Part shown: positions 1 to 39,660 of the stretch, one piece after another
Position numbering within the stretch: position 1 is the stretch's first letter
How the letters are laid out: each line of letters starts with the position of its first letter
Assembly: GCA_963701385.1 (NCBI GenBank)
Contig: CAVOZW010000017.1
Span: forward strand, 1,481 to 65,480
Direction: 5' to 3'
DNA length: 64,000 bases
Source: an uncultured delta proteobacterium
GTDB lineage: Bacteria > Desulfobacterota > Desulfobacteria > Desulfobacterales > B30-G6
The notes under the pieces: model-generated
The model's input: only the letters and a program-made list of their open reading frames with translations
What the model was told of the DNA's origin: nothing
Databases searched by the model: none
Position numbers and translations under genes: made by a program

Positions 1-816
1 CTCCACAATTTTAAGCGCCTTATTCAGCTCTAACACCATTTCAGCCCCGGTTTGGAATCGATCGTCAGGATTCCTTGACAGGCTTTTCATGATCATATCC
101 GAAAGCGATTGAGGTATGAAGGGGTCGATCTGTACCGGCGGGTCGGGTGTATCCTGTATGATTGCGCTCAAAATGGCGGTTATGTTGCCGCCATTAAATG
201 GCCGCCGCCCGACAGCGAGCTCATAAAGAATCACACCCAAGGAATACAGATCTGAGCGGCCGTCGATCGGTGAGCCCATCGCCTGTTCTGGTGACATGTA
301 TACGGGTGTTCCCAGTAGTTCACCAGCCTGGGTTTGCTGCATCGCTGAGGGATCTTCAATACGAGCAATACCGAAATCGGTAAGTTTAACCCGTCCCTCA
401 TCGGTCAGGATTATATTTGAAGGTTTGATGTCCCGATGAACAATTTTCTTTTTATGCGCATAGTCCAGTGTCTCAGCTACCTGTACACCGATATCGATTA
501 TTTTATCAATTTCAAGTCGGCTACCGCGCATCACTTCATCAAACGGCTTTCCCTCGAGGTATTCCATCGCAATGTATATGGTGTTATGGTCCTGACCAAC
601 ATCATACACCGTAACGATATTGGGATGAGAAAGTCTGCCGATAGCCTTAGCCTCTTTTACAAATCTTAGGACAAAATCCTCACTTACCATCCGGTCTGGA
701 CGAAGGACCTTCAAGGCGACTGGCCTTTCGATCTGGGGATCGTGGGCTAGATATACCACTCCCATATTACCTTTCCCCAGCTCTTTTTGGATCCTGTATC
801 TTCCGTATTCTGTCAT
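1..816 (-). CDS. Hanks-type Ser/Thr protein kinase, catalytic domain; the 3' end runs off the window
   Basis: Reverse translation from the ATG at 816-814 reads MTEYGRYRIQKELGKGNMGVVYLAHDPQIERPVALKVL...HRDIKPSNIIL...DFGIA...GTPVYMSPEQ. These are the G-loop, catalytic Lys, HRD, DFG and APE-like motifs. There is no stop inside the window, so the ORF track omits it. Its ATG overlaps the PP2C stop codon (ATGA). Confidence 0.9.
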   Translation of the reverse strand, partial: MTEYGRYRIQKELGKGNMGVVYLAHDPQIERPVALKVLRPDRMVSEDFVLRFVKEAKAIGRLSHPNIVTVYDVGQDHNTIYIAMEYLEGKPFDEVMRGSRLEIDKIIDIGVQVAETLDYAHKKKIVHRDIKPSNIILTDEGRVKLTDFGIARIEDPSAMQQTQAGELLGTPVYMSPEQAMGSPIDGRSDLYSLGVILYELAVGRRPFNGGNITAILSAIIQDTPDPPVQIDPFIPQSLSDMIMKSLSRNPDDRFQTGAEMVLELNKALKIVE

Positions 817-1544
817 TCACACACCATCGAAAGAACCACGGTAATATTATCGTTTCCACCCGCGGATAATGCCTTGCCGATGAGGTCTTCCACTTTTTGG
901 TGTAGTCCGGCGCCGGTTGTCAGAACATCTGCAATCGCATTACTGTCAACCATATCCGTTAAACCATCAGAACAAATTAGGTATTGATCGTCCTGGCGAA
1001 TATTTCCCCGGATGATGTCGAGTTGTAGGTCCGCTTCGACCCCCACTGCCCTGAGAATGATATTCCGCATGGAATGAACTTCCGCTTGCGGTACTGATAT
1101 GAGTCCCTGATCCAGCTGTTCCTGAACCAATGAATGGTCTTTGGTGAGTTGTTTAAGTCGGTTGTTTCGGAACTGATACGTCCTGCTGTCGCCCATGTGG
1201 CCAATGACAAACCGGTTTTTTGAAAAGACAAGCAGTTCTGCGGTACATCCCATTCCTTGTAAATGGGGATTTTCATCAACATAATTTAAAATGCTTTGGT
1301 TTGCATGCCAAAAAGTCCGTTGAACCGCATCAATTTGATCTGCTTCAGACGTATGGCTGCCGGATGATAAATTTTCGCTGGCTGCTTGAGCAAAAAATCG
1401 GCTGGCGCGCTCTCCACCCGCCATACCGCCCATGCCATCGGCGACCAGACAAAAGCCTCGGTCCTGATCAAATAAGAATATATCTTCGTTGTTTTGACGC
1501 ACCAAACCAACATCTGTTTTTCCGAAAAAGCGTATCATATTCAT
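813..1544 (-). CDS. PP2C-family Ser/Thr protein phosphatase
   Basis: 243 aa. N-terminus FGKTDVGLVRQNNEDIF, then ADGMGG and a C-terminal GGNDNITVV, all typical PPM/PP2C motifs. Translationally coupled to the downstream kinase. Confidence 0.9.
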   Translation of the reverse strand: MNMIRFFGKTDVGLVRQNNEDIFLFDQDRGFCLVADGMGGMAGGERASRFFAQAASENLSSGSHTSEADQIDAVQRTFWHANQSILNYVDENPHLQGMGCTAELLVFSKNRFVIGHMGDSRTYQFRNNRLKQLTKDHSLVQEQLDQGLISVPQAEVHSMRNIILRAVGVEADLQLDIIRGNIRQDDQYLICSDGLTDMVDSNAIADVLTTGAGLHQKVEDLIGKALSAGGNDNITVVLSMVCE

Positions 1545-1752
1545 TACACCGACATGTAAAATTGATGGAGGGCATTTAATATTTATTAATATATCAATTT
1601 GTTGTCAAGCAACTTCTTTGTTCACTCGTTACGGCCTTATCCTCCGGCCCATGGTCGATTTCGAGAGGCTTTCGGATTCAATCCGCTGACCGATTCTGCT
1701 GTCTATCCATAATCTTCTTGACACTCCATCACCTCGTACCGTAACAAAAAGT

Positions 1753-2646
1753 ATGCCCTCCGTACCCAACATAATCGTTCAGTTAGTGCACATAGCTGGC
1801 CCACTGAAGGGGGAAATCCAGGAAATTTCAGATCCGGAAATCGTAATCGGCAGACGCTCATCATGCCAGGTCCAATTCCCAAAAGACCTCGCCATTATAT
1901 CCCGCAGACACGCAACCATCATAAGGGAAGGAAACCGCTTTCGCCTAATCGACGAAAGTGCCAACGGTACTTTTTTAAATGGAAAAGGAGTTAGCGAAGC
2001 TCAACTTAAAGACGGCGACGTCATCATGTTTGCCAAGGACGGGCCTAAACTGAGTTTTCTTACTAAGATGGATCAGACTGTTGCATCCAATAAACCTGTT
2101 AGGGAAATAGATCACCGACCTTCAACATCTGGCGGTGTCTTCTCGCCGCCGGCCTCTCCGATGATATCAGATTCTCATTCACCAGAATCCGCCGAACCCA
2201 CCCCGCGAAAAACAAAAGCGCCACTTGTCATTCAATATGGGCCGACGCTACAATCATATAATGAATTGCCGATTACCATGGGCAGCGATGCCGACTGCGA
2301 TTTTGTAATGCACCACCCCTCGGTGTTGCAGAGACATGCACAGATCTTTTTCAGTGAAGATAACTATTGGATTAAAGACTTGACCGGCAAGCAGTCCGTA
2401 TCAATCCACGACGCACCCATTGATAAACAAGCAATGCTGAGACCTGAAGATGTATTGACATTGGGCAACCAGGGTCCGACTTTTCGTTTTCTGGGCGGCG
2501 GGCGTCTTGCTGAAATCGAACAAACTGATTCTACACCGGCCGCCGATCAGACCGAAGGGAGCCGCGAGCAAGCGGACTTGGGGAAATCCAACACCAAGAG
2601 CAAAAAAAGGTCGGCTTCACTATTCAGAAAATTCTTTTCCAGTTGA
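1753..2646 (+). CDS. Protein with two FHA domains
   Basis: 297 aa. FHA1: IVIGRRSSCQVQF...ISRRHATIIREGNRFRLIDESANGTFLNG. FHA2: ITMGSDADCDFVM...LQRHAQIFFSEDNYWIKDLTGKQSVSI. A Pro/Ser-rich linker and a basic C-terminal tail. Divergent from the PP2C/kinase pair. Confidence 0.85.
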   Translation: MPSVPNIIVQLVHIAGPLKGEIQEISDPEIVIGRRSSCQVQFPKDLAIISRRHATIIREGNRFRLIDESANGTFLNGKGVSEAQLKDGDVIMFAKDGPKLSFLTKMDQTVASNKPVREIDHRPSTSGGVFSPPASPMISDSHSPESAEPTPRKTKAPLVIQYGPTLQSYNELPITMGSDADCDFVMHHPSVLQRHAQIFFSEDNYWIKDLTGKQSVSIHDAPIDKQAMLRPEDVLTLGNQGPTFRFLGGGRLAEIEQTDSTPAADQTEGSREQADLGKSNTKSKKRSASLFRKFFSS

Positions 2647-2819
2647 TACCTCAGGCACACGGTCATACGGTCTTCCGCCGTTGACATACCGATACGCATA
2701 TGTGATCTCAAAAATGGTAACTGCTATTGCGGCCGGCATAAGACCACAGGTATAAAACGAAATCGTTTGAGGAGACGGTTTTAAGCCGGCGCTTAACCCT
2801 CAACCTATAAAGAAGCCCG

Positions 2820-4385
2820 ATGAAGCAATACAATCCAATCAGTTTTAAAATACTGGCGATGGCACCATTTCACCATCCAGCAAAAAATAACGGGCCAAAA
2901 TGTGCTATCGCAGTAAATGCCATGGCATTGGACAGCGTCATGGCCGAACTCAAGCCTAATTTCAAGCTGCCTTTGCCACAAACCCTTTGTCCCAAAGGTG
3001 GGATCGAAATCACTTGCTCGTGGCTGCAGGACTTTCATCCGGACTCTTTGGCACGAAATACGCCTTTGCTGAGGCATCTACTGGAGGCCAGAGGCTTCCT
3101 GGAAAAGGCCCGGGCATCAAACAAACCCCAAAGGGAGATAAAAGACCGCCTGAATCAATGGCCAGATCTGCCGGAACTCACCCAAGGCCTCAATATATTA
3201 AAATCAGACCCTGCATCCCAACCGCTGGATCGTTTATTGGAGTTGGTCGACCTTCCCCGGGAAATATCGACATCCACGATAAAAAATACAAGGTTCAATG
3301 GGAATGTAGAAACCATCATCCAAAAAACATTTGAGGCCATATTTCAGCACCAGCCTTTCAAATCGGCAGAGGCGGCATGGCTCGGATTAAATCTGTTACT
3401 GCAAAAAAAAACCGGCCATAAACAAGTGACAGTTTACCTAGCCTCAGCGTCCCGTGACACGCTCCAGGAGACCCTGAATCGACTCCTGCCGGAAATGATT
3501 GACAAGCCACCAACCCTTATCGTTGTTGATTTGCCATTCAGCAACTCGGCGCGCGATCTCGAGCTGATTAAGGCCGTTGCCACATTTTCAGAAACACTTC
3601 TGGCACCGTCGCTGTTATGGATCGGTCCTGAATTTTTCCATCTTAAAACCTGGAATGATCTAAACAAACGACCGTATTTGCCCCATTTTCTTGAGACGAC
3701 CCCCTATGCCAAATGGCGGTCGTTAAAACAGACCGATATGGCTAATTGGCTTATCGTCACCTGCAATTGTTTTGTTCTGCGCTACCCCTACGGGCCGCAT
3801 AACAAACCCAGTTTGTTAGATTTTGAAGAAACCGGCCTGCCCTGGTTGGCACCGGTGTGGGCAATTGCCGACCTGATTGTTCAAAGCCATCTGAAGACAG
3901 GCTGGCCGACGCGATTTACGGATTGGCAGCGGTTCCGTGTGGATGGCCTGGCAATGCAATCCGGTTCCACGGGCCGGTACCCCACAGAAACGATTTTCAG
4001 CATGGATCGCGCCGATCAATTGATACGATCGGGCATCACGCCCCTGATCGGCATTGCGAACAGAGACTTTGTGTGCACACCCATGGAAACCAGTCTGGGT
4101 GGCAGATCGATAGGCGATCAAATCTATCTTTCAATAATAATTGATTATATTATCAAATTGCATGAAAGTGGACAAATCGACTCTAAAGATGACATGCTTG
4201 AAAATGATATTCGGAAATCACTGATTCAATTTCTGGGAGCCAGCCTTGAGCCTACCGCCGATGCCTTGTATGTTTCCACCGGACCGGTCGATTCCAACGG
4301 TCGGTTTCCGTTGGCTATAAGGATCTTACCTGAGGGAACCATTCCGCCACTGAGACATCCCATCGAACTGACTTTCAGCTGGTAG
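2820..4385 (+). CDS. Single-chain TssB-TssC (VipA-VipB)-like sheath paralog
   Basis: 521 aa. The N-terminal ~100 aa is colinear with the window's TssB: FKILAMAPF vs LKILVMGDY, and LQDFHPDSLARNTPLLRHLLEARGFL vs MKDFQPEQVVKNTPELNKLLELREAL. The rest is colinear with TssC: FKSAEAAWLGLNLLL vs FQKLESSWSSLKYMV, APSLLWIGPEFF vs CPFIAAADPQFF, and YAKWRSLKQTDMANWLIVTCNCFVLRYPYG vs YVKWQSFRDSDDARNVALALPRFLLRLPYD. Confidence 0.6.
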   Translation: MKQYNPISFKILAMAPFHHPAKNNGPKCAIAVNAMALDSVMAELKPNFKLPLPQTLCPKGGIEITCSWLQDFHPDSLARNTPLLRHLLEARGFLEKARASNKPQREIKDRLNQWPDLPELTQGLNILKSDPASQPLDRLLELVDLPREISTSTIKNTRFNGNVETIIQKTFEAIFQHQPFKSAEAAWLGLNLLLQKKTGHKQVTVYLASASRDTLQETLNRLLPEMIDKPPTLIVVDLPFSNSARDLELIKAVATFSETLLAPSLLWIGPEFFHLKTWNDLNKRPYLPHFLETTPYAKWRSLKQTDMANWLIVTCNCFVLRYPYGPHNKPSLLDFEETGLPWLAPVWAIADLIVQSHLKTGWPTRFTDWQRFRVDGLAMQSGSTGRYPTETIFSMDRADQLIRSGITPLIGIANRDFVCTPMETSLGGRSIGDQIYLSIIIDYIIKLHESGQIDSKDDMLENDIRKSLIQFLGASLEPTADALYVSTGPVDSNGRFPLAIRILPEGTIPPLRHPIELTFSW

Positions 4386-4657
4386 GGCAGCTTCCAACGG
4401 GTCGCGGCCCCAGAGGAATATCAACCGATTTTCATTTATGCGAGAAGCCGGAAATCGTCTGGCCGCGAAGGGGTCGACGACCTAAATTGACACGGTATTA
4501 CCTAAGTTGAGCGATTGTTGAGGTTGCTGTAGCTACAAGGAAGATGCGATCCCGCCATAGTGAACTATGCGGGATGGCATTTGGCGCTGTAGATGCGGTA
4601 AGATCGGCAATCCCAACGGGTTTCAAATTTTAAGAATTGAAACGCTCATCTTAGGTA

Positions 4658-5458
4658 TTATTTAAGTTGAACCATATACATATCTGCCCCCGCTCCCTCG
4701 GTGTAGGGACCGAAAATAATTGTATCTGGAAAACCGGCCACTTGTGCATAATAAGCGGTTTCCGGATTGATCTCATTTTGAACGGCCCAGGCGGTAAATT
4801 CCTTTTTACCATGAGTGATCTTCATGCCCCTGAGAGGATGCTCCAGAACGGATTTCTCAGGGAGCTTTCCAGTGGTGCCCACAGCTTGAAAGCTGATGTC
4901 AGCACCACAAACACCAAAAATCACGCCCGGCCATCTTTCATGTTGTGGTCTTACTTCAAACCACTGACCCACTTGTTGGTTGCCATGTATATCAATATGA
5001 TAATAGATATCTTTTGGCTTGGTAACCGCATGGATCTTGGCCACTAATTTGGCGCCCAGAGACGTATCTAACGCCTTTAGAATATCGATGCTTTCAAGGG
5101 GTGTCGGCAGCTTATCCGATTTGATGGTATTTTCACCGCTTTGCAGGATTATGATGGGGAAGACTGGTCCCCTTTTGGCATGCACCGCAATTGTGAGCAG
5201 CGAAAGACCATATCGAATCGAGGGCTTCGAAAAATCTTCGGCCTTGCCCAGTATCAACCAGAGGGCCGGTTTTTTGTCAATCAGAGCCTCAAGTCCACTG
5301 ATCCATGCCATTGATTTCAAGTCATCCAGCCAAATGTTTCCCGTGGTTTCCAAACCGTAAGTTTCCAGACCGGCAATCAATTTGGCGACTGTTTTTCCGG
5401 AAATACCCAGTGAGGTAAGCCATATAGGTTGCATGGTTACTCCTTTCAGTTGGAACAC
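4658..5458 (-). CDS. Hypothetical protein (alternating beta/alpha N-terminal half, beta-rich C-terminal half)
   Basis: 266-aa ORF with plausible coding composition. The internal Met at 5434 (MQPIWLTS) is an alternative start. I recognise no family. Convergent with the fused sheath gene. Confidence 0.5.
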   Translation of the reverse strand: MFQLKGVTMQPIWLTSLGISGKTVAKLIAGLETYGLETTGNIWLDDLKSMAWISGLEALIDKKPALWLILGKAEDFSKPSIRYGLSLLTIAVHAKRGPVFPIIILQSGENTIKSDKLPTPLESIDILKALDTSLGAKLVAKIHAVTKPKDIYYHIDIHGNQQVGQWFEVRPQHERWPGVIFGVCGADISFQAVGTTGKLPEKSVLEHPLRGMKITHGKKEFTAWAVQNEINPETAYYAQVAGFPDTIIFGPYTEGAGADMYMVQLK

Positions 5459-6021
5459 TCTTAGACGGATTGCGGCCTAGCCCCCGGCTCTATTCTCGAA
5501 GCCACAGCAAAGACGCGATCCCGGCAAGCAAAACCGCCATGGTTGACGATAGTAATCGTTTAAAGGGGGCCCAAAGGAAATAATAGCACGCTGGGTAGAT
5601 AAATATCGTTTTGAGGAAATCGGGTCAACACAAATTGAGTGAATTATATTGACACCTTAGAACAGATATGTTTTAATTTATCTACTTTAACTGAATTTTC
5701 CGGTGAAAAAGCAGAAATATCATCCTATCGTGGGCCAAAACACGTTCCTGTGAACAATGGGGCAAACGGGTAATACCGTGATCCTTCAATAATATTTAAT
5801 TTAATCTTCGGACATGCCGGGTCCCCCGTTCCAACTGCAGCCCGGAATCTGTTATAGCATAACTTAGAAGCGCGCATACATCCACGGGTTAGCCCAAGGC
5901 TCTCTATGATGGCGGTCATTTCGAAACGCCATCCCTTGAATCACAGTAATGGATTAGCTTCTATAATGAGCATCGGAATTGCCAACTGACGCGTCCATTC
6001 ATTCCTATTAAGAGGTGTATC

Positions 6022-7290
6022 GTGCACTTTCTAAAATCATCCGTCCTATTGGTTTTATCGACGCTACTGATTTTTTCATGCAGCACTCCGAAAAAAGTGT
6101 CCCAAAAGCCCCCGCTTAAATTCCATGGATTGACCATCGCCAAAGGTATTGAGAAAAGGGGTTCGGTAGCAATGCCGGTTGATCCGACAACCCAATTCAG
6201 TCCCCAGGATGAGGTGGTAATTGCCCATATAAAATTAGACAATCTTTCCGGCAAGCACAATTTCCGATGGGATTGGCATGCCCCCGGCGGCGAATTATAT
6301 TATTCGACAGCTGATTTTGCATACAACATACCGGATAAACAGTATTCGAAGGAAACCACCGCTTGGCATAGTCTTAATTTAAAAGGGGATAAGGCTTCGA
6401 GTTTATTCGGTAATTGGGAGGTAAAGGTATATATCAATACCGACCTTGTTGACAGCAAACGCTTTGTTCTCACAGCCGTAAAGGATTCGATTGAACTGAC
6501 CGATGTGGTTGTTCAGAATCCGTTTCCCAGTGATTGGGGACTTGTTATTGGAATTGAAGAGTATGCGCACCTCCCAAGCGTTGACTATGCAACCAAGGAT
6601 GCCTTGATCATAAGAGATTATTTTATAAAAGTGCTGCGGATTCCCGAAGAAAACATCATTGCCCTCTTCGGCAGCGATGCCACAAAAGCGCAGATGGAAG
6701 GCTACCTTGAACAGTACATACCCAGCAATGTCAAATCGAATTCCACCCTGTATGTGTATTTCGTGGGACACGGTGCCCCCGGGATGAAGGACGGTGATCC
6801 CTATTTGGTACCATTTGACGGCGATACGCGGTTTATCGAGCAAACCGGATACAAGCTTCAGAAGCTGTATAACGATTTAGGAAAAATGAATATCAAACAG
6901 TCGTATGTTTTCCTCGATTCGTGTTTCAGTGGCACCGCCAACCGGGCAGCCGAAATGCTGGTAAAGGGAACCCGGCCGACATTGATGCAGGTAAAGGAAG
7001 TTGAGATCAAAACCGGCTCGGTCATTTCCCTTAGCGCAACCTCAGTCGGCCAGACCAGTAACGCCTATGCGGAGACCGAGCACGGATTATTTACCTATTA
7101 CCTGCTAAAAGGGCTCAAAGGTGCAGCGGATGCCGATGAAGACAGTTGGGTCAGCATCAAGGAGATGTATGAATACGTTTCCCAACATGTACCCAGGGTA
7201 GCTCGTCGAATGGGTACTGAGCAGACACCTTCAATTTTGCCGCCTGTAAATCAATTGAAGGATGTGGCCATTGGTCGCGTGCTTAATTAA
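6022..7290 (+). CDS. Caspase-like (peptidase C14) lipoprotein
   Basis: GTG start preceded by AAGAGGTG. Lipobox LLIFSCS. Caspase His/Cys dyad context YVYFVGHGAP and YVFLDSCFSG. Confidence 0.8.
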   Translation: MHFLKSSVLLVLSTLLIFSCSTPKKVSQKPPLKFHGLTIAKGIEKRGSVAMPVDPTTQFSPQDEVVIAHIKLDNLSGKHNFRWDWHAPGGELYYSTADFAYNIPDKQYSKETTAWHSLNLKGDKASSLFGNWEVKVYINTDLVDSKRFVLTAVKDSIELTDVVVQNPFPSDWGLVIGIEEYAHLPSVDYATKDALIIRDYFIKVLRIPEENIIALFGSDATKAQMEGYLEQYIPSNVKSNSTLYVYFVGHGAPGMKDGDPYLVPFDGDTRFIEQTGYKLQKLYNDLGKMNIKQSYVFLDSCFSGTANRAAEMLVKGTRPTLMQVKEVEIKTGSVISLSATSVGQTSNAYAETEHGLFTYYLLKGLKGAADADEDSWVSIKEMYEYVSQHVPRVARRMGTEQTPSILPPVNQLKDVAIGRVLN

Positions 7291-7314
7291 TCTGCAATAT
7301 CTTGTGGTAACCTC

Positions 7315-8220
7315 ATGCGGAATTGCACGTATAAAAAACACCTAACCATCTGTTTTCGAATGGTCATTTGCGCACTGATTACGGCATACATAGCGGTGCC
7401 ACTCCAGTTACCTCAGTTATACGCCAATCAGAATCCGTCCCATCAGGACATCACCTGGGTAACAGTTGAAGGCTCAGCACCCATCGTCGGCAACAACCTC
7501 GAACAAGCCAGAGATAGAGCTATAATCGAGGCAGAGAAAAACGCACTAGATTCAGCGGTGGTTTCGGATATCTCTCTTGATGCCTTGTTGGTTAACCTTA
7601 AGCTGTCCGGCAGCATGGTCGGAGCGATTCCGTATGGAGAAATTGTCGAAACCGTTATTCTGGAAGAAGGACCAACACCTTCTGAAAACAACTCCCCAAA
7701 CGCCGCTGGCACCCATTACAATCTTAAAGCCAAAATCGGGGTGGCGGTAGAAGTTACCGGGTCAGACCCAGCCTTCAATATTGAGGCCACTCTGAATAAA
7801 ACCGCGTTCATAGACGGTGAGGAGATGACCATAACACTCAAAACCACTGCCGATTGCTTCTATGCCATATTTATTATGTTCGAAGACCAGAAGGTCCTCA
7901 AACTGATCCCCAATCGTTACAAAACAGACAATTACTTGGCTGCCGACACCGCGTACACCCTACCGAATGATGAGGATCGTGCCAGAGGAATTTTATTAAA
8001 GGTCGTTGCGCCGGAAGGAAAGAAAAGCGCATCAGAATCGGTCTATGTGGTGGCATTGAAACAACCCATAGATTTTAATTCAGATAAAATACAAGAGGCC
8101 GTATTGGGATTGTATGACGGTCAAACCGCCTTCATCAAGGACCTGATCAGACAGATTGTTCATATTCCCTTGCGGGAAAGAGCTGAAAAATTGATACAAT
8201 ACCAGATTCGTAAACCTTAG
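7315..8220 (+). CDS. Exported protein with an LPP20/FlgO-like N-terminal domain and a DUF4384-like C-terminal domain
   Basis: 301 aa. N-terminal hydrophobic segment, then VTVEGSAPIVGNNLEQARDRAIIEAEKNALDSAV. C-terminal TADCFYAIFIMFEDQKVLKLIPNRY resembles DUF4384, a domain often found next to caspase-like genes. Confidence 0.55.
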   Translation: MRNCTYKKHLTICFRMVICALITAYIAVPLQLPQLYANQNPSHQDITWVTVEGSAPIVGNNLEQARDRAIIEAEKNALDSAVVSDISLDALLVNLKLSGSMVGAIPYGEIVETVILEEGPTPSENNSPNAAGTHYNLKAKIGVAVEVTGSDPAFNIEATLNKTAFIDGEEMTITLKTTADCFYAIFIMFEDQKVLKLIPNRYKTDNYLAADTAYTLPNDEDRARGILLKVVAPEGKKSASESVYVVALKQPIDFNSDKIQEAVLGLYDGQTAFIKDLIRQIVHIPLRERAEKLIQYQIRKP

Positions 8221-11800: not shown

Positions 11801-12201
11801 CTTCCGCTGATTTTTTCAATAGTTATTTCAAGGACTATACCGTACTTTTTAAGAACAAACTTTATTTTGCCGGCTATGACGAATCAACTGGCACTGAGCT
11901 ATGGACCAGTGACGGCACCCCAGAGGGAACAAATATACTCAAGGACATAAACCCGTCAGGACATAGTTTTCCATGCCATTTTACAGTTGTTGAGGATGTG
12001 TTGTTTTTTACCGCAGACGATGGGGCCAATGGGCTTGAATTATGGTCAACCGATGGAACAGAAGCGGGCACCCTGCTTTACAGGGACATGAATCCCCTCG
12101 GGCACAGTTACCCTAAAAGCCTGACCAATATTGACGGCGTGTTGTATTTCGAAGCGTATGACAGCCTAAATGGTTATGTTCTAAGGAGATTGACATATTA
12201 A
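8839..12201 (+). CDS. ELWxxDGT-repeat protein with an N-terminal signal/TM segment and an FN3-like domain
   Basis: 1120 aa. FN3-like TVTITWNPVEGASSYNLYWATS. About 17 copies of the motif (ELWASDGTDAGT, ELWRSNGTEIST, ALWRSDGTESGT ... ELWSTDGTEAGT). Confidence 0.85.
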   Translation: MHSLPKAGIILKWVLQSIIFSILFFILACSNDSSSTSKHRIDVGGSVAFSVIWNRSDEDTSLIGHRSLDDCLDIETVEATIYDQGNTSLSHGREPCSDHYMSLENVEPGTNLELVVFALDANDDCLYRGNETISVTSGQRTTVQDPIVAESFVPVATASSEGTTVTITWNPVEGASSYNLYWATSTGVSKINGNKIEGITNTYFEHQDLASNQSYFYVVAAMDQYQNESVCSDEVQALTGIEVVKIFSSGKNKGSNPRNLLNANGLLFFSAENTHSWNISEYKGVELWASDGTDAGTYLVEDINIGIKSSYPDNFTIVNGTLYFTAFRSGEGEELWRSNGTEISTTLVKDINPGDSSSDPSSLTDLNGRLYFTAWVDDKGRELFRSDGTASNTEMVSEINPGGGSSSPSNLTIFDGDLFFSAYDGENYGLWKLTGDYYWSTPSQVDIPGGSNPGDLTECNGMLFFEARDPDHGYELWVYGGSDGPKQGTFMVRDIYPGTNISSYPEDFICSNGVLFFEANNDSNGKALWRSDGTESGTYMVKDINSQTGYYDTISYMMAIDGILYFSGDGDDYGRELWRSNGTDWGTYMILDINQNGSGGSYPYELQNVNGTLFFRADDGTGRELWKSDGTQGNAEKVKDIYPDGSYVNHDIGDFETMDDTLFFRADDGRNGTELWKSNGTASTTEMVKNINTSADNDYAISSDIIEVNNTLFFSAKDMDYGNELWTSDGTNSGTTVIDITPGNDGTNITQLTKSNNMLFFRADTELTGSEVWVSDGTESGTINLEICPGTCSSSPWYLLDYNDRLYFQAQGTDSDSELYISDGTIAGTKIFMDLDQTGSSYPRLLTKFDEFFYFFTRDASSNYKIWQSDGTEIGTFFITSFSSDNTYIYPHLLSYAGDQLFMIIEDDYYAELWTSDGTEAGTERVTGVGPGEYFSYGNPIDFDGVFIFTKKEDYYYETNRTTLIRSDGTEAGTYDLKDITTTNTIGPSADFFNSYFKDYTVLFKNKLYFAGYDESTGTELWTSDGTPEGTNILKDINPSGHSFPCHFTVVEDVLFFTADDGANGLELWSTDGTEAGTLLYRDMNPLGHSYPKSLTNIDGVLYFEAYDSLNGYVLRRLTY
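9694..12075 (+). repeat. Coding tandem array of ~17 ELWxxDGT repeat units (about 45-60 aa each)
   Basis: The motif E-L-W-x-S-D-G-T-x-x-G-T recurs through the ORF translation. Confidence 0.8.
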
Positions 12202-20653: not shown

Positions 20654-20869
20654 TGAATTGTTTTCCTAAATATGCCGGTCTTTTCGCATTCCCCCAAGAA
20701 CTAATCTATTCCATAGAGACAGTAAACATTATGTATTTAGCCAATCCAAATAGCGTAAACTAACCGTTTTTTCACCTGAGTGAATCTTTTTCTATTTCTA
20801 AGCCGCATTTAGATTTGAAACCTGATATACGAGTCAAGAATTAGTCAGTAGCAGACTTGACCCCTATAG

Positions 20870-24200: not shown

Positions 24201-24253
24201 ACTATTCGAATCATTTTCATCGGCACGAATATTTCGTTGCCAGGACGAGGTCG

Positions 24254-26248: not shown

Positions 26249-26287
26249 GCTATTACAATATCATCCAAATTCTATTATCAGAACGTT

Positions 26288-30772: not shown

Positions 30773-33403
30773 TTATCCTCCAAAATCTATCGTAAACATG
30801 CCGTCCTCATTCAGATCCAGGTTGATCTGCGACGGCATTTCACCCTCGCTCATGCAACTCAGGATCTCCTGGGACATGCGTGGCATGATGCTGCCGCTCA
30901 TGATGTAATCGATATTCCTGGCACCGGTTTCAACCTCGGTGCAGCGAGCCGCGATCTGTTCCACCACCGCCGGAGAATAGACCAGCTTCATCTTATGGTT
31001 TTCGGCCAGTCTTCTGACCAGCTTTTCCATTTTGAGGGCCACGATCTCCTTGAGGACATCGGTCTTTAACGTCAGGTAGGGAATCAGGTTCATGCGTGCC
31101 AGAAGGGCGGGTTTGAAATGGTTGCTCAATATGGGACGGATGGCTGCGCTGATGCTTTCCAACGGCGGAACTTCATCACCGGAGCACATTTCCGTGATCA
31201 CATCGGTGGCCAGGTTGCTGGTCAGGAAAATGACCGTGTTCTTGAAATCGATCAGCCGGCCCTCGCCATCGGAGAGCATGCCTTTGTCGAAAACCTGGTA
31301 AAACAGGTTCATCACCTCCAGGTGCCCTTTCTCCACTTCGTCGATGAGCACGACCGAATAAGGCCGTTGACGAACGGCTTCCGTGAGGACACCCCCCTCA
31401 CCATAGCCCACATACCCGGGCGGCGATCCGATCAAGCGGCTGACGGTGTGTTTCTCCTGGAACTCGCTCATGTTAATGGTCACCATAAAATTTTCGCCGC
31501 CAAACAGGAGGTCGGCCACCGCCAGGCCGGTTTCGGTCTTGCCCACGCCGCTGGGACCGGCCAGCATGAACACACCCATGGGCTGATTGGGATCCTTAAC
31601 CCCGGCCTTGGCAGCCTTGATCACCCGGGTGAGACTATCCAGGGCCCCATCCTGGCCCTTGATGCGTGCTTTCAAATTCTCCCCCAGATTGATGATGCCC
31701 TTGGCCTCGTCCTTCATTACTTTCCCGAGGGGTATTCCCGTCCAGTCGGAGACCACCTTGGAAACAACGTCCGGATCCACTTCCGTGCGCACCAGCGGTG
31801 AATCACCTTGGATCCGCTGCAGGTCTTCCACCGCCGCGTTCAGTTCCGCTTTCAGGTCCGCCGCCGTCTCCCCCTCCGCCGCAGGCTTTTGCCCTGCTTC
31901 GTAAAGTCGCTGCCGAATCTCAATCACCTTTTGGGCCGCGGCCTGCTCTTCCAGCCAGCGCTCTTTGAGCGAATCAACCTCCTGGTTAAGTTTATCCAGT
32001 TCGGTCTGGGTCTCCTGGGTGCGCTCTTTATCGATCTCCATTCCGTGAAGCGCGTCGCGCTCGAGGGCCTTCTGCTCGCGCTGGAGCGCCTGCATACGGC
32101 GCTCCTTGTCTTCGATCACATCGGGTTTGGCGGTCAACAGCACCTTTACCCGCGCCGCACTGGTATCCAGCAGATCGACGGCCTTGTCCGGTAGCTGACG
32201 CCCGGAGATGTAGCGGCTGGAGAGCTCGGCCGCAGCCACGATGGCATCATCACGCACCACCACGCTATGGGCGGCCTCGTACTTGCTCTTTAGACCCCGC
32301 AGAATCAGCGTGGCAATCTCTTCGGACGGTTCGTCCAGTTTGACCAGCTGGAATCGGCGTGCCAGGGCCGCATCTTTCTCAAAATATTTCTTGTATTCCG
32401 ACCATGTGGTGGCAGCCACGGTGCGCAGCTCGCCGCGCGCCAGGGCCGGCTTTAGCAAGTTGGCCGCGTCAGACATCCCAGCGGCTCCTCCGGCGCCGAT
32501 CAGTGTGTGGGCCTCGTCGATAAAAAGAATGATCGGTTTTTCGGATGCCTTGATCTCGTTGATCACCGACTTCAGACGATTTTCAAACTCGCCCTTCATG
32601 CCGGCCCCGGCCTGGAGCAGCCCCATGTCCAGTCCCAGAATCGACACGTCGTGCAGCAACTCGGGAACGTCTCCCTCAACAACGCGCAAAGCCAGCCCTT
32701 CCACAACCGCCGTCTTGCCCACCCCAGCCTCGCCCACCACGATGGGGTTGTTTTTGCGCCGGCGGGCCAGGATATCCACCATCTGGCGGATTTCACGATC
32801 GCGCCCGAACACGGGGTCGATCTCCCCGGCCGCGGCCTTAGCCGTAAAGTTGTCGCAAAATTGGTTCAGGGCCGTTCCCTCGCCGGCTGTCACAGCTTCG
32901 CGCTGCTCGGTCGCAACGACCGAGGGCTTTTCCGTCGATCCTTTGACCGAATCCCAGAATTGAGACCTTAGCGCATCCCGGCTGATGGCCTCAAGAATGT
33001 CAACATAATCCCCGGTGGCGAACTGGGTAGGCCTGTTCAGGAATGCCAGCAGCAGGGCCCCGGAGCGCACCCGGGTCTCTTTTAAATCGACGGATCCCAC
33101 CAGCCAGCCCTCCTGGAATAACTCCATTAAAACCGGGGAAAAAACCGGTTTGGCAGCATTGCCGGTCTTGAATTCCTCCAGGGAGCGGTCGATGGCCTTC
33201 TGCAGGCGACCGGCATCAATGTCGAAATGGCGCAGGATCAACGGAAGATCTGACCGGGCGTCCTCCAACAGCTTGGAAAGCAGGTGTTCGATGGTCACTT
33301 CGTAATGGGTGCGTGATACGCATAGTCCGGCGGCTGCTTCAAGCGATCGGGTGCAATGGGTGTTCAACCGGCCTAACAGGGACTTGATGTCGACCGAAAT
33401 CAT
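30773..33403 (-). CDS. clpV: ClpV (TssH) AAA+ ATPase
   Basis: 876 aa. Walker A motifs GEAGVGKTAVVEGLA and GPSGVGKTETGLAVA. Walker B motifs ILFIDEAH and VVLIDEVEK. ClpV-type N-domain. Confidence 0.93.
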   Translation of the reverse strand: MISVDIKSLLGRLNTHCTRSLEAAAGLCVSRTHYEVTIEHLLSKLLEDARSDLPLILRHFDIDAGRLQKAIDRSLEEFKTGNAAKPVFSPVLMELFQEGWLVGSVDLKETRVRSGALLLAFLNRPTQFATGDYVDILEAISRDALRSQFWDSVKGSTEKPSVVATEQREAVTAGEGTALNQFCDNFTAKAAAGEIDPVFGRDREIRQMVDILARRRKNNPIVVGEAGVGKTAVVEGLALRVVEGDVPELLHDVSILGLDMGLLQAGAGMKGEFENRLKSVINEIKASEKPIILFIDEAHTLIGAGGAAGMSDAANLLKPALARGELRTVAATTWSEYKKYFEKDAALARRFQLVKLDEPSEEIATLILRGLKSKYEAAHSVVVRDDAIVAAAELSSRYISGRQLPDKAVDLLDTSAARVKVLLTAKPDVIEDKERRMQALQREQKALERDALHGMEIDKERTQETQTELDKLNQEVDSLKERWLEEQAAAQKVIEIRQRLYEAGQKPAAEGETAADLKAELNAAVEDLQRIQGDSPLVRTEVDPDVVSKVVSDWTGIPLGKVMKDEAKGIINLGENLKARIKGQDGALDSLTRVIKAAKAGVKDPNQPMGVFMLAGPSGVGKTETGLAVADLLFGGENFMVTINMSEFQEKHTVSRLIGSPPGYVGYGEGGVLTEAVRQRPYSVVLIDEVEKGHLEVMNLFYQVFDKGMLSDGEGRLIDFKNTVIFLTSNLATDVITEMCSGDEVPPLESISAAIRPILSNHFKPALLARMNLIPYLTLKTDVLKEIVALKMEKLVRRLAENHKMKLVYSPAVVEQIAARCTEVETGARNIDYIMSGSIMPRMSQEILSCMSEGEMPSQINLDLNEDGMFTIDFGG

Positions 33404-37672: not shown

Positions 37673-39160
37673 TTAGTCCTTATCCAGCTTGCCCACCAGG
37701 GACAGGGTAAAATAGGCGCCCATGTATTTGAAATGGGGCACCACCTTCATGCTCACCTTGTACCACCCGGGATCACCCGCCACATCCTCCACCGTGATCT
37801 GTGCTTTGCGCAAAGGTCTGCGGCTGCGGGAATCAGCACTAGGATTCTCCTGGTCGGAAATGTACTGGCTGATCCAGCTATTCAGTTCTTTGTCCAAATC
37901 GGCGCGCGACTTCCAGGAGCCGATGTTCTCGCGCTGAATCACTTTTAGATAGTGGGCCAGGCGGTTGGCCACGAACATGTAGGGCAGTTGCGTCCCCAGC
38001 TTGTGATTGGTTTCGGCCTCTTTGCCCTCAGGCGTGTTGCCGAAAAATTTTGGTTTTTGGGTCGAGTTGGCTGAAAAAAAGCAGGCGTTATCACTGCCTT
38101 TGCGCATGGCCAGGGCCATGAAGCCCTGTTCGGCCAGCTCGAACTCCCGCCGGTCGGAGATGAGTACTTCCGTGGGAATCTTGGTCTGAACCGCGCCCAT
38201 GGATTCGAACTGGTGTACATTCAGATCCTCCACGGCGCCGCCGCCCAGGGGTCCGATGATGTTGGTGCACCAGCGGTACTTGGCGAAACTGTCGGTCAGT
38301 CGGCTGGCAAAGGTAAAGGCCGCGTTGCCCCACAAGTAATTTTCATGGCCTGATGAAACGTTTTCTTTGTAATTGAAGGCCTTGACCGGATTGTTTTCCG
38401 GGTCATAGGGCAGTCTCAGCAGAAAGCGGGGCAGGGCCAGGGCCACGTTGCGGGCGTCGTCGGAGTCCCTGAAGGACTGCCACTTGACATACTGGGGCCC
38501 TTCAAAGATAGACTCCAAGTCCTTCAGTTTGGGCAGCTCGTTGAAGTCGTCGATTCCGAAAAACTGCGGATCCGCAGCGGCGATAAAAGGACAGTGCGAC
38601 ATGGAAGCCACGCTGGCGATGTTCTGCAGCAGCTTGATGTCCTGGGGACCCGGACCGAAATCGTAATTGGCCACCATGTTCCCATAGGGCTGTCCGCCGA
38701 ACTGACCGAATTCGGCCGTGTAGACCGTGCGGTACAGGCCGGACTTGGTTACCTCGGGTGCATCCTCGAAATCGTCCAGCAGATCCTGCTTGCTGATATT
38801 CAAGAGCTCCAGTTTAATGTTTTCCCGGAAGTCGGTCTTGTCCACCATGTATTTCAGCGAGGACCAGGATGATTCCAGCTTCTGAAAATCTTCGTTGTGC
38901 AGAATGGCGTCTAATTGCAGACTCATTTTATTGTCGATCTCGGCGATCATGTCGTCAATGAGGGCATTGGACACTTTGTCGACCTTGCGGCCGGGCTCGA
39001 CAATCTGGGCGATAAACGCCGCCAAACCTTTTTTGGTTAAAGCGTAGCCCTCGTCTGCCGGCTGAAGCTTGGTGGCGGTGACGATATCATCCAGCAGAGA
39101 AGGCGTTTCGGACACCTCTTCTCCTGTGGTGGCCCCTTCTTTTTCGAGTTTTTCAGACAT
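37673..39160 (-). CDS. tssC: TssC (VipB) large sheath subunit
   Basis: 495 aa with conserved blocks FQKLESSWSSLKYMV, CPFIAAADPQFFG, YVKWQSFRDSDDARNVALALPRFLLRLPYD. Confidence 0.93.
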   Translation of the reverse strand: MSEKLEKEGATTGEEVSETPSLLDDIVTATKLQPADEGYALTKKGLAAFIAQIVEPGRKVDKVSNALIDDMIAEIDNKMSLQLDAILHNEDFQKLESSWSSLKYMVDKTDFRENIKLELLNISKQDLLDDFEDAPEVTKSGLYRTVYTAEFGQFGGQPYGNMVANYDFGPGPQDIKLLQNIASVASMSHCPFIAAADPQFFGIDDFNELPKLKDLESIFEGPQYVKWQSFRDSDDARNVALALPRFLLRLPYDPENNPVKAFNYKENVSSGHENYLWGNAAFTFASRLTDSFAKYRWCTNIIGPLGGGAVEDLNVHQFESMGAVQTKIPTEVLISDRREFELAEQGFMALAMRKGSDNACFFSANSTQKPKFFGNTPEGKEAETNHKLGTQLPYMFVANRLAHYLKVIQRENIGSWKSRADLDKELNSWISQYISDQENPSADSRSRRPLRKAQITVEDVAGDPGWYKVSMKVVPHFKYMGAYFTLSLVGKLDKD

Positions 39161-39174: not shown

Positions 39175-39660
39175 TTATTCTTCAATTTTCAATTCTTTTA
39201 ATATTTTTTCCCGGGAGGCGTCGTCCCCGATCAGTGCCTGAATCTTTTTACGGAACTCGGGCCGGTTGCCCATGGGTCCCTTAAGCGCATTCAGGGCCTC
39301 CCGCAGCTCCAGCAGCTTATTGAGCTCTGGGGTATTTTTGACGACCTGTTCGGGCTGGAAGTCTTTCATGGATTCTATTTTGAGGGACAGGGCCATTTCC
39401 GCATCGGGCTCTTCGGAGAGCTTATTCTCCACGGTCAAATCCAGATTGAGTGTCTGGGCTTTCATCACCTCGTTGAAGTTGTCCTTGTCGATGTTGATCG
39501 GCTCCCGTTCCTCGACCATGCGGTCATCTTCTCTAAGCGTGTAGTCTCCCATCACCAGTATTTTCAGGGGCAGCTCGACTTCCTCCTGGGCACCGCCGGT
39601 GGCGGGGCGATAAACAATATTGACCCTTTCCTTTGGCGCCACTGATCCTTCTTTTGCCAT
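39175..39660 (-). CDS. tssB: TssB (VipA) small sheath subunit
   Basis: 161 aa. PKERVNIVYRP...ELPLKILVMGDYT...DFQPEQVVKNTPELNKLLELREAL. Confidence 0.93.
   Translation of the reverse strand: MAKEGSVAPKERVNIVYRPATGGAQEEVELPLKILVMGDYTLREDDRMVEEREPINIDKDNFNEVMKAQTLNLDLTVENKLSEEPDAEMALSLKIESMKDFQPEQVVKNTPELNKLLELREALNALKGPMGNRPEFRKKIQALIGDDASREKILKELKIEE

What the first reader, a model, noticed from the sequence alone, without database searches (positions are those of the whole stretch)
2820..4385. Single-polypeptide TssB-TssC sheath paralog, remote from the T6SS core and beside the FHA/PP2C/kinase module
The 521-aa ORF aligns by eye, in order, first to the window's TssB and then to its TssC.

TssB-like part:
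- FKILAMAPF / LKILVMGDY
- LDSVMAELKPNFKL / FNEVMKAQTLNLDL
- LQDFHPDSLARNTPLLRHLLEARGFL / MKDFQPEQVVKNTPELNKLLELREAL

TssC-like part:
- FKSAEAAWLGLNLLL / FQKLESSWSSLKYMV
- LIVVDLPFSNSARDLELIKAVATFSETLLAPSLLWIGPEFF / NMVANYDFGPGPQDIKLLQNIASVASMSHCPFIAAADPQFF
- YAKWRSLKQTDMANWLIVTCNCFVLRYPYG / YVKWQSFRDSDDARNVALALPRFLLRLPYD
- TETIFSMDRADQLIRSGITPL / TEVLISDRREFELAEQGFMAL

It is about 135 aa shorter than TssB+TssC (161+495 aa). The losses fall around the TssB C-terminus/TssC N-terminus junction and in the C-terminal half.

Canonical sheaths are built from two separate polypeptides, and a canonical tssB/tssC pair is present at 37.7-39.7 kb. This is therefore an extra, divergent, fused copy. It lies downstream of a double-FHA gene and divergent from a PP2C/Hanks-kinase pair. 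I am not aware of a described function for such a natural fusion. It could be a sheath cap, nucleator or poison subunit, a phospho-regulated assembly factor, or a relic of a second system.
Basis: partly seen in the sequence, partly recalled or inferred. Interest (0 to 1): 0.8.

Follow-up and report, generated by a model that had tools for sequence, protein, structure and literature searches.

The report
Single-chain T6SS sheath paralog, phospho-module-linked
This gene encodes both proteins of the type VI secretion "spring" (TssB and TssC) fused into one chain that lacks one of its two connecting arms, belongs to a conserved but undescribed family always encoded beside a phospho-threonine signalling module, and so probably regulates the spring rather than building it.

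Summary
ORF 2820-4385 (521 aa) is a genuine TssB-TssC fusion by Pfam, profile-profile alignment, PDB sequence search, and AlphaFold plus Foldseek.

It is not an artefact. More than 100 full-length relatives of 517-528 aa exist, all in Desulfobacterota-type MAGs. In 45 of 46 informative loci a double-FHA gene lies directly upstream on the same strand. A PP2C, a Hanks kinase and an uncharacterised 258-aa protein are usually nearby.

The fusion is a stripped protomer:
- **Lost:** the TssB N-terminal donor strand, which is one of the two "handshake" arms, and most of the TssC N-terminus.
- **Kept:** the sheath core, the C-terminal hairpin and terminal strand, and a conserved linker motif ([VIL]DxIL.MVA.P).

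Through a second, longer fused family (590-645 aa), that motif aligns with the LLDEII-type ClpV-binding helix of canonical TssC. The window's ClpV has the matching open-groove type.

The gene lies at the distal end of a complete T6SS locus, so it is not truly remote from it.

My best reading is inferred, not shown: a phospho-controlled, ClpV-addressable sheath-end subunit that cannot form bulk sheath. I found no description in the literature. I rate it a new variant of a known kind.

The parts
2820..4385 (+). Short fused TssB-TssC sheath paralog, 521 aa (whole gene including stop)
2829..3155 (+). TssB-like module (aa 4-112). It corresponds to TssB 27-141. It starts at strand beta2, so the N-terminal donor strand beta1 is absent.
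   Evidence: hhalign; MAFFT; frame limit; role of beta1 from PMC5807055
3156..3287 (+). Linker of about 45 aa (aa 113-156). It replaces TssB 142-161 plus TssC 1-68. AlphaFold confidence is low over aa 123-160.
3225..3263 (+). Conserved linker motif, aa 136-148: LDRLLELVDLPRE (family consensus [VIL]DxIL.MVA[LM]P.E). It is a candidate vestige of the TssC N-terminal ClpV-binding helix.
   Evidence: Column counts; alignment; transitive hhalign; LLDEII motif from PMC4239648. A direct motif HMM against canonical TssC was negative.
3288..4307 (+). TssC-like core (aa 157-496). It corresponds to TssC 69-455, with two internal deletions of about 20 aa.
   Evidence: hhalign; Pfam; Foldseek; MAFFT
4308..4382 (+). 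C-terminal strands (aa 497-521), including the terminal strand 515-520. Invariant W521 follows it as the last residue. These are homologous to the acceptor-hairpin strand and C-terminal donor strand of TssC.
   Evidence: Secondary structure; invariant W521; hhalign
1753..2646 (+). Double-FHA protein (297 aa), the conserved upstream operon partner. FHA1 has canonical pThr-binding residues and FHA2 is degenerate. It carries a basic amphipathic C-terminal tail.
813..1544 (-). PP2C phosphatase (Stp1/PppA-like), divergent from the FHA gene
1..816 (-). Hanks-type Ser/Thr kinase. Only the N-terminal part is present because the gene runs off the window start.
4658..5434 (-). Conserved 258-aa protein with no Pfam family, convergent downstream partner of both the short and long fused families
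37673..39160 (-). Canonical TssC (495 aa), with an N-terminal 22-LLDDIV-27 motif
39175..39660 (-). Canonical TssB (161 aa), with the N-terminal arm present
30773..33403 (-). ClpV. Its N-domain is of the V. cholerae open-groove type (Ile6 and Val87 at the groove top).
   Evidence: PMC4239648

Best explanation
**Shown.**
- The gene encodes a sheath protomer in one chain: TssB-like, then a linker, then TssC-like.
- It belongs to a conserved Desulfobacterota family.
- It is almost always co-transcribed with a double-FHA protein inside the T6SS threonine-phosphorylation module (kinase, PP2C, FHA), at the distal end of a complete canonical T6SS locus.
- Compared with TssB+TssC it keeps the folded core, the C-terminal hairpin, the terminal strand and a short conserved helix motif in the linker.
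- It physically lacks the TssB N-terminal donor strand and TssC residues 1-68.

**Inferred.**
- Every canonical subunit must donate two arms to the mesh, and the N-terminal linker is what relays contraction. A one-armed protomer therefore cannot build or propagate a contractile sheath.
- It could still dock by its C-terminal strand, or accept strands from canonical subunits.
- I therefore propose that it is a specialised sheath-end subunit placed at the initiation site.
- The FHA protein probably sits at the inner membrane through its amphipathic tail. It would read a phospho-threonine mark written by the kinase and erased by the PP2C, and hold or release the fused protomer.
- There the protomer would prime canonical sheath polymerisation, or act as a non-relaying lock on it.
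- ClpV could extract it through the retained LLDEII-like helix, which sits in an exposed flexible linker.
For: **Identity**
- Pfam, hhalign, PDB search, AlphaFold and Foldseek.

**Family and selection**
- 249 homologues, of which more than 100 are full length.
- 105 of the best 150 cluster representatives in an exhaustive search are 450-560 aa.
- Invariant core motifs are shared with TssC.

**Synteny**
- FHA gene upstream in 45 of 46 informative loci. Intergenic gaps are mostly -4 to 100 bp, and five are 4-bp overlaps.
- The 258-aa partner lies downstream within the 10-kb flank in 31 of 58 loci, the PP2C upstream in 27, and a kinase anywhere within the fetched locus in 31.
- Core T6SS genes lie within 10 kb in 11 loci.

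**Missing N-arm**
-. All family members start about 8 residues before beta2.

**Role of the arms (literature)**
- Donor strands TssB beta1 and TssC beta13 form the handshake (PMC5807055).
- Each subunit sends two linkers towards the baseplate-proximal ring, and TssE accepts those of ring 1 (PMC5813253).
- Lengthening the VipA N-terminal linker by 2 aa abolishes contraction (PMC5797969).

**C-arm kept**
-.

**ClpV link**
- The linker motif is nearly invariant.
- It aligns to the long-family motif, which hhalign places on the TssC N-terminal helix.
- The ClpV-binding motif LLDEIM/LLDEII comes from PMC4239648.
- The window TssC has LLDDIV.
- The window ClpV-N is closest to V. cholerae ClpV-N and has aliphatic Ile6 and Val87 at the groove top.

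**Location at the base**
- Fha foci mark the site where sheaths start and bind TssL/TssE (PMC13389060).
- TagH partners include ClpV and p-TssL (PMC13584744).
- 33 of 45 FHA orthologues end in a MinD-like basic amphipathic tail.
Against: - No experiment or complex prediction links the protein to the canonical sheath, TssE, the FHA protein or ClpV.
- The ClpV-helix homology is only transitive. A direct motif HMM did not retrieve canonical TssC N-termini, and the direct hhalign of the short family with TssC starts after the motif.
- No invariant threonine was found in the linker. Position 133 is S or T in 33 of 45 sequences but T in only 15, and FHA domains need pThr.
- The conserved canonical segment SGLY...GQFGG is deleted, which could destroy lateral contacts needed for co-assembly.
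- Base versus distal end cannot be decided from sequence.
- A related long fused gene sits in a locus with no T6SS gene in view (L084). There it lies 4.8 kb from a contig end.
Confidence: 0.4

Rival explanations
1. Distal cap, chain terminator or poison subunit. The one-armed protomer adds to the growing distal end through its C-terminal strand and stops or destabilises further polymerisation. This would set sheath length or keep the system off until the kinase signal removes it.
For: It has the same structural features as the best explanation: the C-arm is kept and the N-arm lost. New subunits donate their arms towards the baseplate-proximal ring, so they add distally (PMC5813253). The composition of the distal end of V. 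cholerae sheaths is unresolved and may include sheath-like density.
Against: Its obligate operon partner is an FHA protein. Fha proteins act at the initiation site, not the distal end. The locus already has a TssA with ImpA_N+VasJ domains, and TssA family members prime and coordinate polymerisation from the distal end of growing sheaths (PMC5813253), plus TagF, the known repressor (PMC13584744). The acceptor hairpin appears intact, so nothing obvious blocks further addition.
Confidence: 0.2
2. Sheath-independent scaffold or ClpV adaptor/decoy. The sheath fold has been recycled as a soluble platform in the kinase/PP2C/FHA/caspase signalling module. It could present the LLDEII-like helix to recruit or titrate ClpV without ever entering the sheath lattice.
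For: - It is only 21% identical to the genome's own TssC and scores far below the NCBIfam equivalog cutoffs.
- It has lost a conserved lattice-facing segment.
- Both fused families travel with the 258-aa protein, FHA proteins and caspase-like proteins.
- One long-family locus shows no T6SS genes nearby.
- TagH/Fha1 is linked to ClpV in Pseudomonas.
Against: The C-terminal hairpin and terminal strand are strictly retained, with an invariant last residue W521. Those elements exist to make inter-subunit strand exchange. The module lies in or next to canonical T6SS loci whenever enough flank is available to see it.
Confidence: 0.2
3. Subunit of a second, non-canonical sheath-like polymer built from fused paralogs (short plus long forms). 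This would be analogous to the multi-paralog sheaths of extracellular contractile injection systems.
For: Tandem pairs of a shorter and a longer fused gene lie directly after tssM or stand alone (L081, L085/86). Long fused genes sit next to tssK-L-M where no separate tssB/tssC is visible within the fetched flank (L079, L080).
Against: The window contains no long fused gene: only three sheath-related ORFs score with the family HMM at maximum sensitivity. No second Hcp, TssE, TssF or TssG accompanies the gene. A lattice of one-armed subunits lacks half of its links.
Confidence: 0.08
4. Decaying relic of a duplicated tssBC pair, or an assembly or frameshift artefact.
For: It is strongly divergent from the canonical genes and shorter than their sum.
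Against: More than 100 independent full-length relatives have the same length, 29 invariant residues and conserved synteny across many MAGs and studies. The AlphaFold model is confident.
Confidence: 0.02

Closest known systems
Canonical T6SS sheath TssB/TssC (VipA/VipB, HsiB/HsiC, IglA/IglB)
   Same: Same fold and same domain order. It shares conserved core motifs (KDFHPD, W-GL, NRFLLR-PYG, PTE). It has the C-terminal hairpin and terminal strand, and an LLDEII-like helix upstream of the TssC core.
   Different: - One polypeptide instead of two.
- The TssB N-terminal donor strand is absent.
- TssB 142-161 and TssC 1-68 are replaced by a 45-aa linker.
- Two internal deletions.
- No Pfam VipB_2 hit.
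- Far below the NCBIfam equivalog cutoffs.
- Encoded with FHA/PP2C/kinase rather than with tssA/hcp/tssE.
Long fused TssB-TssC family (590-645 aa; uncharacterised; annotated 'contractile sheath large subunit', e.g. MBI1926566.1 from Candidatus Poribacteria)
   Same: It is also a natural single-chain TssB-TssC. It aligns full length with the short family (hhalign E 1e-90). It has the same linker motif ALDxLLxMVD, and it associates with FHA-SLT, PP2C, kinase and the 258-aa protein.
   Different: It keeps nearly all of TssB (22-158) and TssC (15-485), and some members hit VipB_2. It has an extra N-terminal segment of 20-45 aa. It is often found beside tssK-L-M or in tandem with a shorter fused gene. 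It is absent from this window.
Engineered VipA N-terminal-linker mutants (VipA-N2/N3 non-contractile sheaths)
   Same: Altering the N-terminal connection of the small subunit uncouples assembly from contraction (PMC5797969).
   Different: Those mutants lengthen the linker by 2-7 residues and still donate the strand. Here the whole arm is missing, and the change is natural and conserved.
TagH/Fha1-PpkA-PppA threonine phosphorylation pathway of T6SS
   Same: A Hanks kinase, a PP2C and an FHA protein are encoded together in a T6SS locus. A TagR-type FGE-sulfatase domain protein is also present at 12233-14128.
   Different: The FHA protein has two FHA domains and a short basic tail instead of the long TagH C-terminal region (TIGR03354 69.5 bits against a cutoff of 120). 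A sheath-like gene has not been listed among TPP or accessory components (review PMC13584744).
Specialised sheath paralogs of extracellular contractile injection systems (Afp2/3/4, Pvc2/3/4)
   Same: These are extra single-chain sheath paralogs, some of which occupy only the baseplate-proximal layers. This point is from my own knowledge and was not tested here. The Foldseek hits to these sheaths are generic.
   Different: They belong to a different lineage of sheath proteins, have no TssB/TssC-specific outer domain, and have no link to phospho-signalling or ClpV.

Membership tests
T6SS contractile sheath (TssB/TssC superfamily) | VipA/TssB domain (PF05591) above the Pfam gathering score | tested here: met
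   41.9 bits against a cutoff of 24, aa 9-113; hhalign prob 98.3
T6SS contractile sheath (TssB/TssC superfamily) | VipB/TssC N-domain (PF05943) above the Pfam gathering score | tested here: met
   114.6 bits against a cutoff of 27, aa 163-419; hhalign prob 99.9
T6SS contractile sheath (TssB/TssC superfamily) | Sheath protomer fold | tested here: met
   AlphaFold pLDDT 83 and pTM 0.85. The top nine Foldseek PDB hits are TssC/VipB/IglB, E 1e-17 to 2e-11, target-normalised TM 0.59-0.72.
T6SS contractile sheath (TssB/TssC superfamily) | C-terminal gp25-like domain (PF18945 VipB_2) | tested here: inconclusive
   No Pfam hit at E<=1. However, hhalign extends to TssC 455 and, via the long family, to the C-terminus. 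Predicted strands at 483-487, 497-502 and 515-520.
T6SS contractile sheath (functional TssB/TssC equivalog) | Score above the NCBIfam equivalog cutoffs TIGR03355 and TIGR03358 | tested here: not met
   87.8 against 271.5 bits, and 34.9 against 97.25 bits
T6SS contractile sheath (functional TssB/TssC equivalog) | N-terminal donor strand of TssB (handshake arm beta1) | tested here: not met
   The alignment starts at TssB residue 27. Only about 8 residues precede beta2, and the reading frame opens at 2811. The same holds across the family.
T6SS contractile sheath (functional TssB/TssC equivalog) | C-terminal donor strand of TssC | tested here: met
   Terminal strand 515-520, followed by invariant W521 as the last residue. 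It aligns to the canonical terminal strand via the long family.
T6SS contractile sheath (functional TssB/TssC equivalog) | TssC N-terminal region with ClpV-binding helix (LLDEII motif class) | tested here: inconclusive
   TssC 1-68 is largely deleted. A conserved [VIL]DxIL motif remains and maps onto the TssC helix only transitively. A direct motif HMM was negative.
T6SS contractile sheath (functional TssB/TssC equivalog) | Two adjacent genes within the tssA-tssB-tssC-hcp-tssE block | tested here: not met
   It is a single gene flanked by FHA, PP2C, kinase and the 258-aa gene. The canonical pair is 33 kb away.
T6SS contractile sheath (functional TssB/TssC equivalog) | Polymerises around Hcp into a contractile tube | not testable with these tools
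   This needs purification with EM, or live imaging.
T6SS accessory (Tag) genes of the threonine phosphorylation pathway | Conserved linkage to Hanks kinase, PP2C and FHA genes inside a T6SS locus | tested here: met
   In the window. FHA is upstream in 45 of 46 informative loci. Across the 58 loci, PP2C is present in 27, a kinase in 31, and core genes lie within 10 kb in 11.
T6SS accessory (Tag) genes of the threonine phosphorylation pathway | Phosphorylation-dependent interaction or activity | not testable with these tools
   No invariant Thr in the linker. This needs phosphoproteomics or binding assays.

The most novel reading that the evidence does not exclude
Natural single-chain TssB-TssC proteins form a previously unrecognised class of T6SS component. 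The short form would be a one-armed "sheath plug or primer". A membrane-tethered double-FHA reader would insert it at the baseplate when the kinase fires, and ClpV would pull it out through its exposed LLDEII-like helix. That would give phospho-signalling a direct structural handle on sheath nucleation or contraction. A further possibility is that long and short fused paralogs together build a sheath of their own in some phyla, such as Poribacteria.
Probability: 0.3. Interest if true: 0.85.

Novelty: new variant of a known kind. Interest (0 to 1): 0.62.

Why it matters
How the threonine-phosphorylation pathway physically switches on T6SS assembly is still unclear, and every known sheath is built from two chains that each donate an arm to the lattice. 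A conserved natural sheath subunit that is fused, one-armed, genetically tied to an FHA reader, and still carries a ClpV-handle-like motif would be a concrete, testable link between signalling and the contractile polymer.

It could also work as a natural tool, like the engineered linker mutants, for dissecting initiation, propagation of contraction and recycling. It further shows that sheath genes can be duplicated and repurposed as accessory factors. The second, longer fused family raises the question of whether functional single-chain T6SS sheaths exist.

Tried and rejected
1. The genome scan with the single protein found nothing. It succeeded only with the family alignment.
2. Loci L059-L078 from that scan are ordinary separate tssB+tssC pairs in Ignavibacteria, Bacteroidota and Acidobacteriota. 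They are not fusions. I used them only as a canonical reference set.
3. A 22-column HMM of the linker motif did not retrieve canonical TssC N-termini (best non-family E 3.3). The ClpV-helix homology therefore rests on the transitive profile alignments only.
4. A search for an invariant phospho-acceptor Thr in the linker found none. Position 133 is S or T in 33 of 45 sequences.
5. The 258-aa neighbour has no Pfam or NCBIfam hit for the window protein, and none of its 38 aligned homologues hits Pfam. Foldseek gives only weak, generic flavodoxin/CheY/TIR-like and beta-barrel matches, so I assigned no function.
6. The promoter and terminator scan of 1400-5700 was at background level.
7. I tried to extend locus L085 beyond ClpV to see whether canonical tssBC is present.
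8. Six literature searches, plus a term search inside a 2026 review of T6SS accessory factors, returned only engineered GFP fusions and no natural TssB-TssC fusion.
9. I rejected the "relic of a second system" reading. No second hcp, tssE, tssF or tssG is nearby, and the family is under clear constraint.
Full report
**1. The observation**

ORF 2820-4385(+) encodes 521 aa. The stop-to-stop frame opens at 2811, so the N-terminus cannot be extended.

- **Pfam:** T6SS_VipA over aa 9-113 (41.9 bits) and the VipB N-domain over aa 163-419 (114.6 bits). There is no VipB_2 hit.
- **NCBIfam:** the TssC and TssB equivalogs match far below their cutoffs, 87.8 against 271.5 and 34.9 against 97.25.
- **BLASTP against the window's own proteins:** 21% identity to TssC (E 2e-16) and 28% to TssB (E 6e-6).
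- **PDB profile search with 45 family members:** TssC1 (3e-39), VipB (3e-31), M. xanthus TssC (9e-29) and IglB (6.5e-15), plus TssB/VipA/IglA chains (5e-12 to 2e-7).
- **AlphaFold model:** pLDDT 83.2 and pTM 0.85. The only long low-confidence stretch is aa 123-160.
- **Foldseek:** the nine best PDB matches are T6SS large sheath subunits. Sheaths of extracellular injection systems and phages follow.

The fusion is therefore real and far beyond chance.

**2. Anatomy relative to TssB+TssC**

Profile-profile alignment maps aa 4-112 onto TssB 27-141 of 161. It maps aa 157-496 onto TssC 69-455 of 495. A MAFFT alignment with concatenated canonical pairs shows the same picture.

Missing parts:
- **TssB 1-26.** This contains the N-terminal strand (ERVNIVY in the window's TssB).
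- **TssB 142-161 and TssC 1-68.** A linker of about 45 aa replaces them.
- **Two internal segments of about 20 aa** (TssC ~135-155 and ~360-382).

Retained parts:
- The two TssB strands of the middle domain and the outer-domain helices.
- The TssC core motifs.
- Three C-terminal strands (483-487, 497-502, 515-520), followed by an invariant tryptophan, W521, as the last residue.

In solved sheaths the lattice is held by a "handshake". Two strands of TssC accept the C-terminal strand of a neighbouring TssC and the N-terminal strand of a neighbouring TssB (PMC5807055). Each subunit sends both linkers towards the ring nearer the baseplate, and TssE accepts those of the first ring (PMC5813253). Lengthening the VipA N-terminal linker by two residues abolishes contraction (PMC5797969).

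The fused protein is therefore a one-armed protomer. It can in principle accept strands and donate its C-terminal strand. It cannot make or relay the N-terminal connection.

**3. A conserved family with conserved neighbours**

The word-indexed search returned 249 homologues. More than 100 are full length (517-528 aa), carry both Pfam domains, and are 35-69% identical. In an exhaustive HMM search of 1.84 billion cluster representatives, 105 of the best 150 are 450-560 aa.

A scan of one genome per species gave 57 loci. Nearly all are labelled Desulfobacterota lineages or carry unresolved labels (Deltaproteobacteria, Proteobacteria, bacterium). One bin is labelled Bacteriovoracaceae and one Syntrophorhabdus.

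I searched those 57 loci, plus L001 fetched (58 in all), with the window's proteins:
- A double-FHA gene lies directly upstream on the same strand in 45 of 46 informative loci. Gaps are mostly -4 to 100 bp, including five 4-bp overlaps.
- A homologue of the 258-aa protein encoded at 4658-5434(-) lies downstream within the 10-kb flank in 31 of 58 loci.
- A PP2C lies upstream in 27 loci, and a Hanks kinase lies anywhere within the fetched locus in 31.
- VgrG, ClpV, TssG, TssF or PAAR lie within 10 kb in 11 loci.

In L001 (39% identity) the order is kinase, PP2C | FHA, fused gene | 258-aa gene, PAAR-like ... VgrG, ClpV.

The window has a complete canonical T6SS at 27.7-48.3 kb. It comprises TssJ, K, L, M, TagF, TssA, B, C, Hcp, TssE, F, G, ClpV, VgrG and PAAR. 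Low-GC cargo genes and further regulatory genes follow. The fused gene marks the distal end of the same locus rather than a remote site.

**4. The surrounding module is a T6SS threonine-phosphorylation module**

- The PP2C matches the Stp1 family above cutoff.
- The kinase is Hanks-type.
- The first FHA domain of the double-FHA protein keeps the GR...SRxH...NGT phospho-threonine-binding residues. The second lacks them.
- 33 of 45 FHA orthologues end in a basic amphipathic tail (K-S/G-x-F-K-K-F-F). It resembles a MinD-type membrane-targeting helix, which is my inference.
- Further along lies a bitopic FHA-transmembrane-lytic transglycosylase protein at 14173-15636.
- There is also a secreted caspase + FGE-sulfatase protein at 12233-14128. 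The FGE-sulfatase family (COG1262) is that of TagR, the periplasmic activator of PpkA (PMC13584744).

In studied systems Fha foci mark the site where sheaths start and bind TssL and TssE (PMC13389060). Reported TagH partners include ClpV and phospho-TssL.

**5. A second, longer fused family and the linker motif**

Below the short family, the exhaustive search lists proteins of 590-645 aa (24 of the best 150). They have stronger VipA (73-90 bits) and VipB (186-273 bits) scores, and some hit VipB_2. One comes from Candidatus Poribacteria.

Alignments of this long family:
- To canonical TssB, over residues 22-158.
- To canonical TssC, over residues 15-485 (E 3.5e-88).
- To the short family, over its full length (E 1.3e-90).

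Their contexts:
- Fused gene followed by TssK-TssL-TssM (L080).
- TssJ-K-L-M followed by a 491-aa and then a 623-aa fused gene (L085).
- A tandem 542-aa and 612-aa pair (L081).
- DcrB, fused gene, FHA-SLT, PP2C, kinase (L087).
- Fused gene, FHA-SLT ... homologue of the 258-aa protein (L082).
- A locus with the 258-aa protein and caspase and WD40 proteins but no T6SS gene in view (L084).

The window itself has no long form.

Both families share a nearly invariant linker motif. In the short family it is [VIL]136-D137-x-[IL]139-L140-x-M-V143-A-[LM]-P146. In the long family it is ALDxLLxMVD. hhalign places the long-family motif on the N-terminal helix of canonical TssC (window TssC 22-LLDDIV-27), and places the short-family motif on the long-family motif.

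In V. cholerae this helix (19-LLDEIM-24) is the ClpV-binding site. TssC proteins with the LLDEII motif co-occur with ClpV proteins that have aliphatic residues at the top of the N-domain groove (PMC4239648). The window's ClpV N-domain is closest to V. cholerae ClpV-N (E 2.6e-27, against 1.6e-13 for P. aeruginosa ClpV1-N). It has Ile and Val at the positions of V. cholerae Leu6 and Ala86.

There is a caveat. A direct HMM of the motif did not find canonical TssC, so the homology is transitive only.

**6. Interpretation**

*Shown:*
- A conserved, single-chain, one-armed sheath protomer.
- Operonic with a double-FHA protein.
- Located in the phospho-regulatory arm of a canonical T6SS locus.

*Inferred:*
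- It cannot be bulk contractile sheath.
- It most likely docks at a sheath end. I favour the initiation site because of its FHA partner, where it would act as a primer or a non-relaying lock.
- It would be controlled by the kinase/phosphatase pair and removable by ClpV.

*Rivals:*
- A distal cap or poison subunit.
- A sheath-independent scaffold or ClpV adaptor.
- A subunit of a second polymer built with long fused paralogs.
- A relic or artefact, which the family data exclude.

**7. Novelty**

Sources annotate members as hypothetical, as "ImpC", or as "contractile sheath large subunit/domain-containing protein". Six full-text searches, plus a term search inside a 2026 review of T6SS accessory factors, turned up only engineered fusions. 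I rate this a new variant of a known kind, of moderate to high interest. The function remains untested.

Noticed in passing
window 14173-15636 (-): A bitopic protein with a cytoplasmic FHA domain (canonical pThr-binding residues), one transmembrane segment (about aa 163-185) and a periplasmic SLT lytic transglycosylase. Homologues follow long fused sheath genes and precede PP2C plus kinase in L082/83/87/88. It may be a phospho-controlled cell-wall remodelling enzyme for T6SS insertion.
   Followed up: partly
window 12233-14128 (-): A secreted protein combining a caspase (Peptidase_C14) domain with an FGE-sulfatase domain. The latter is COG1262, the family of the PpkA activator TagR. Further caspase-like lipoprotein and DUF4384 genes lie at 6022-8220. 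Caspase-like genes recur near fused sheath genes in other loci (L002, L004, L024, L033, L046, L049, L084).
   Followed up: partly
window 4658-5434 (-): A 258-aa protein family with no Pfam or NCBIfam match. It is 42-55% identical across most listed relatives (one at 77%), higher than the 35-49% typical of the fused gene's relatives. The AlphaFold model is confident (pLDDT 92.5): a flavodoxin/CheY/TIR-like domain plus a beta domain. It neighbours both short and long fused sheath genes. Function unknown.
   Followed up: partly
window 1753-2646 (+): In the double-FHA protein, only the first FHA domain keeps the phospho-threonine-binding residues. Most orthologues (33 of 45) end in a basic amphipathic K-x-x-F-K-K-F-F tail that resembles a MinD-type membrane-targeting helix.
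   Followed up: partly
L079-L088 (not in the window): A second family of natural TssB-TssC fusions, 590-645 aa, includes a Candidatus Poribacteria protein. Members lie beside tssK-L-M, in tandem with a shorter fused gene, or before FHA-SLT/PP2C/kinase. Whether any genome uses such a protein as its only sheath is open.
   Followed up: partly
window 8839-12201 (+): A 1120-aa protein with an N-terminal signal-like segment. It carries about 15 repeats, spaced roughly 48 aa apart, of an ELW-x-SDGT motif (propeller-like repeat). It has only weak Pfam hits.
   Followed up: no
window 20000-28000 versus 28000-36000: G+C is about 42% across the unannotated genes downstream of PAAR (probable cargo or immunity genes, including a DcrB-like gene at 26851-27324). 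It is 55-58% in the adjacent T6SS core genes. This suggests an exchanged cargo island.
   Followed up: no
window 48304-51259 (-): Two genes (250 aa and 733 aa) with no Pfam match lie directly upstream of tssJ, at the head of the T6SS gene block.
   Followed up: no
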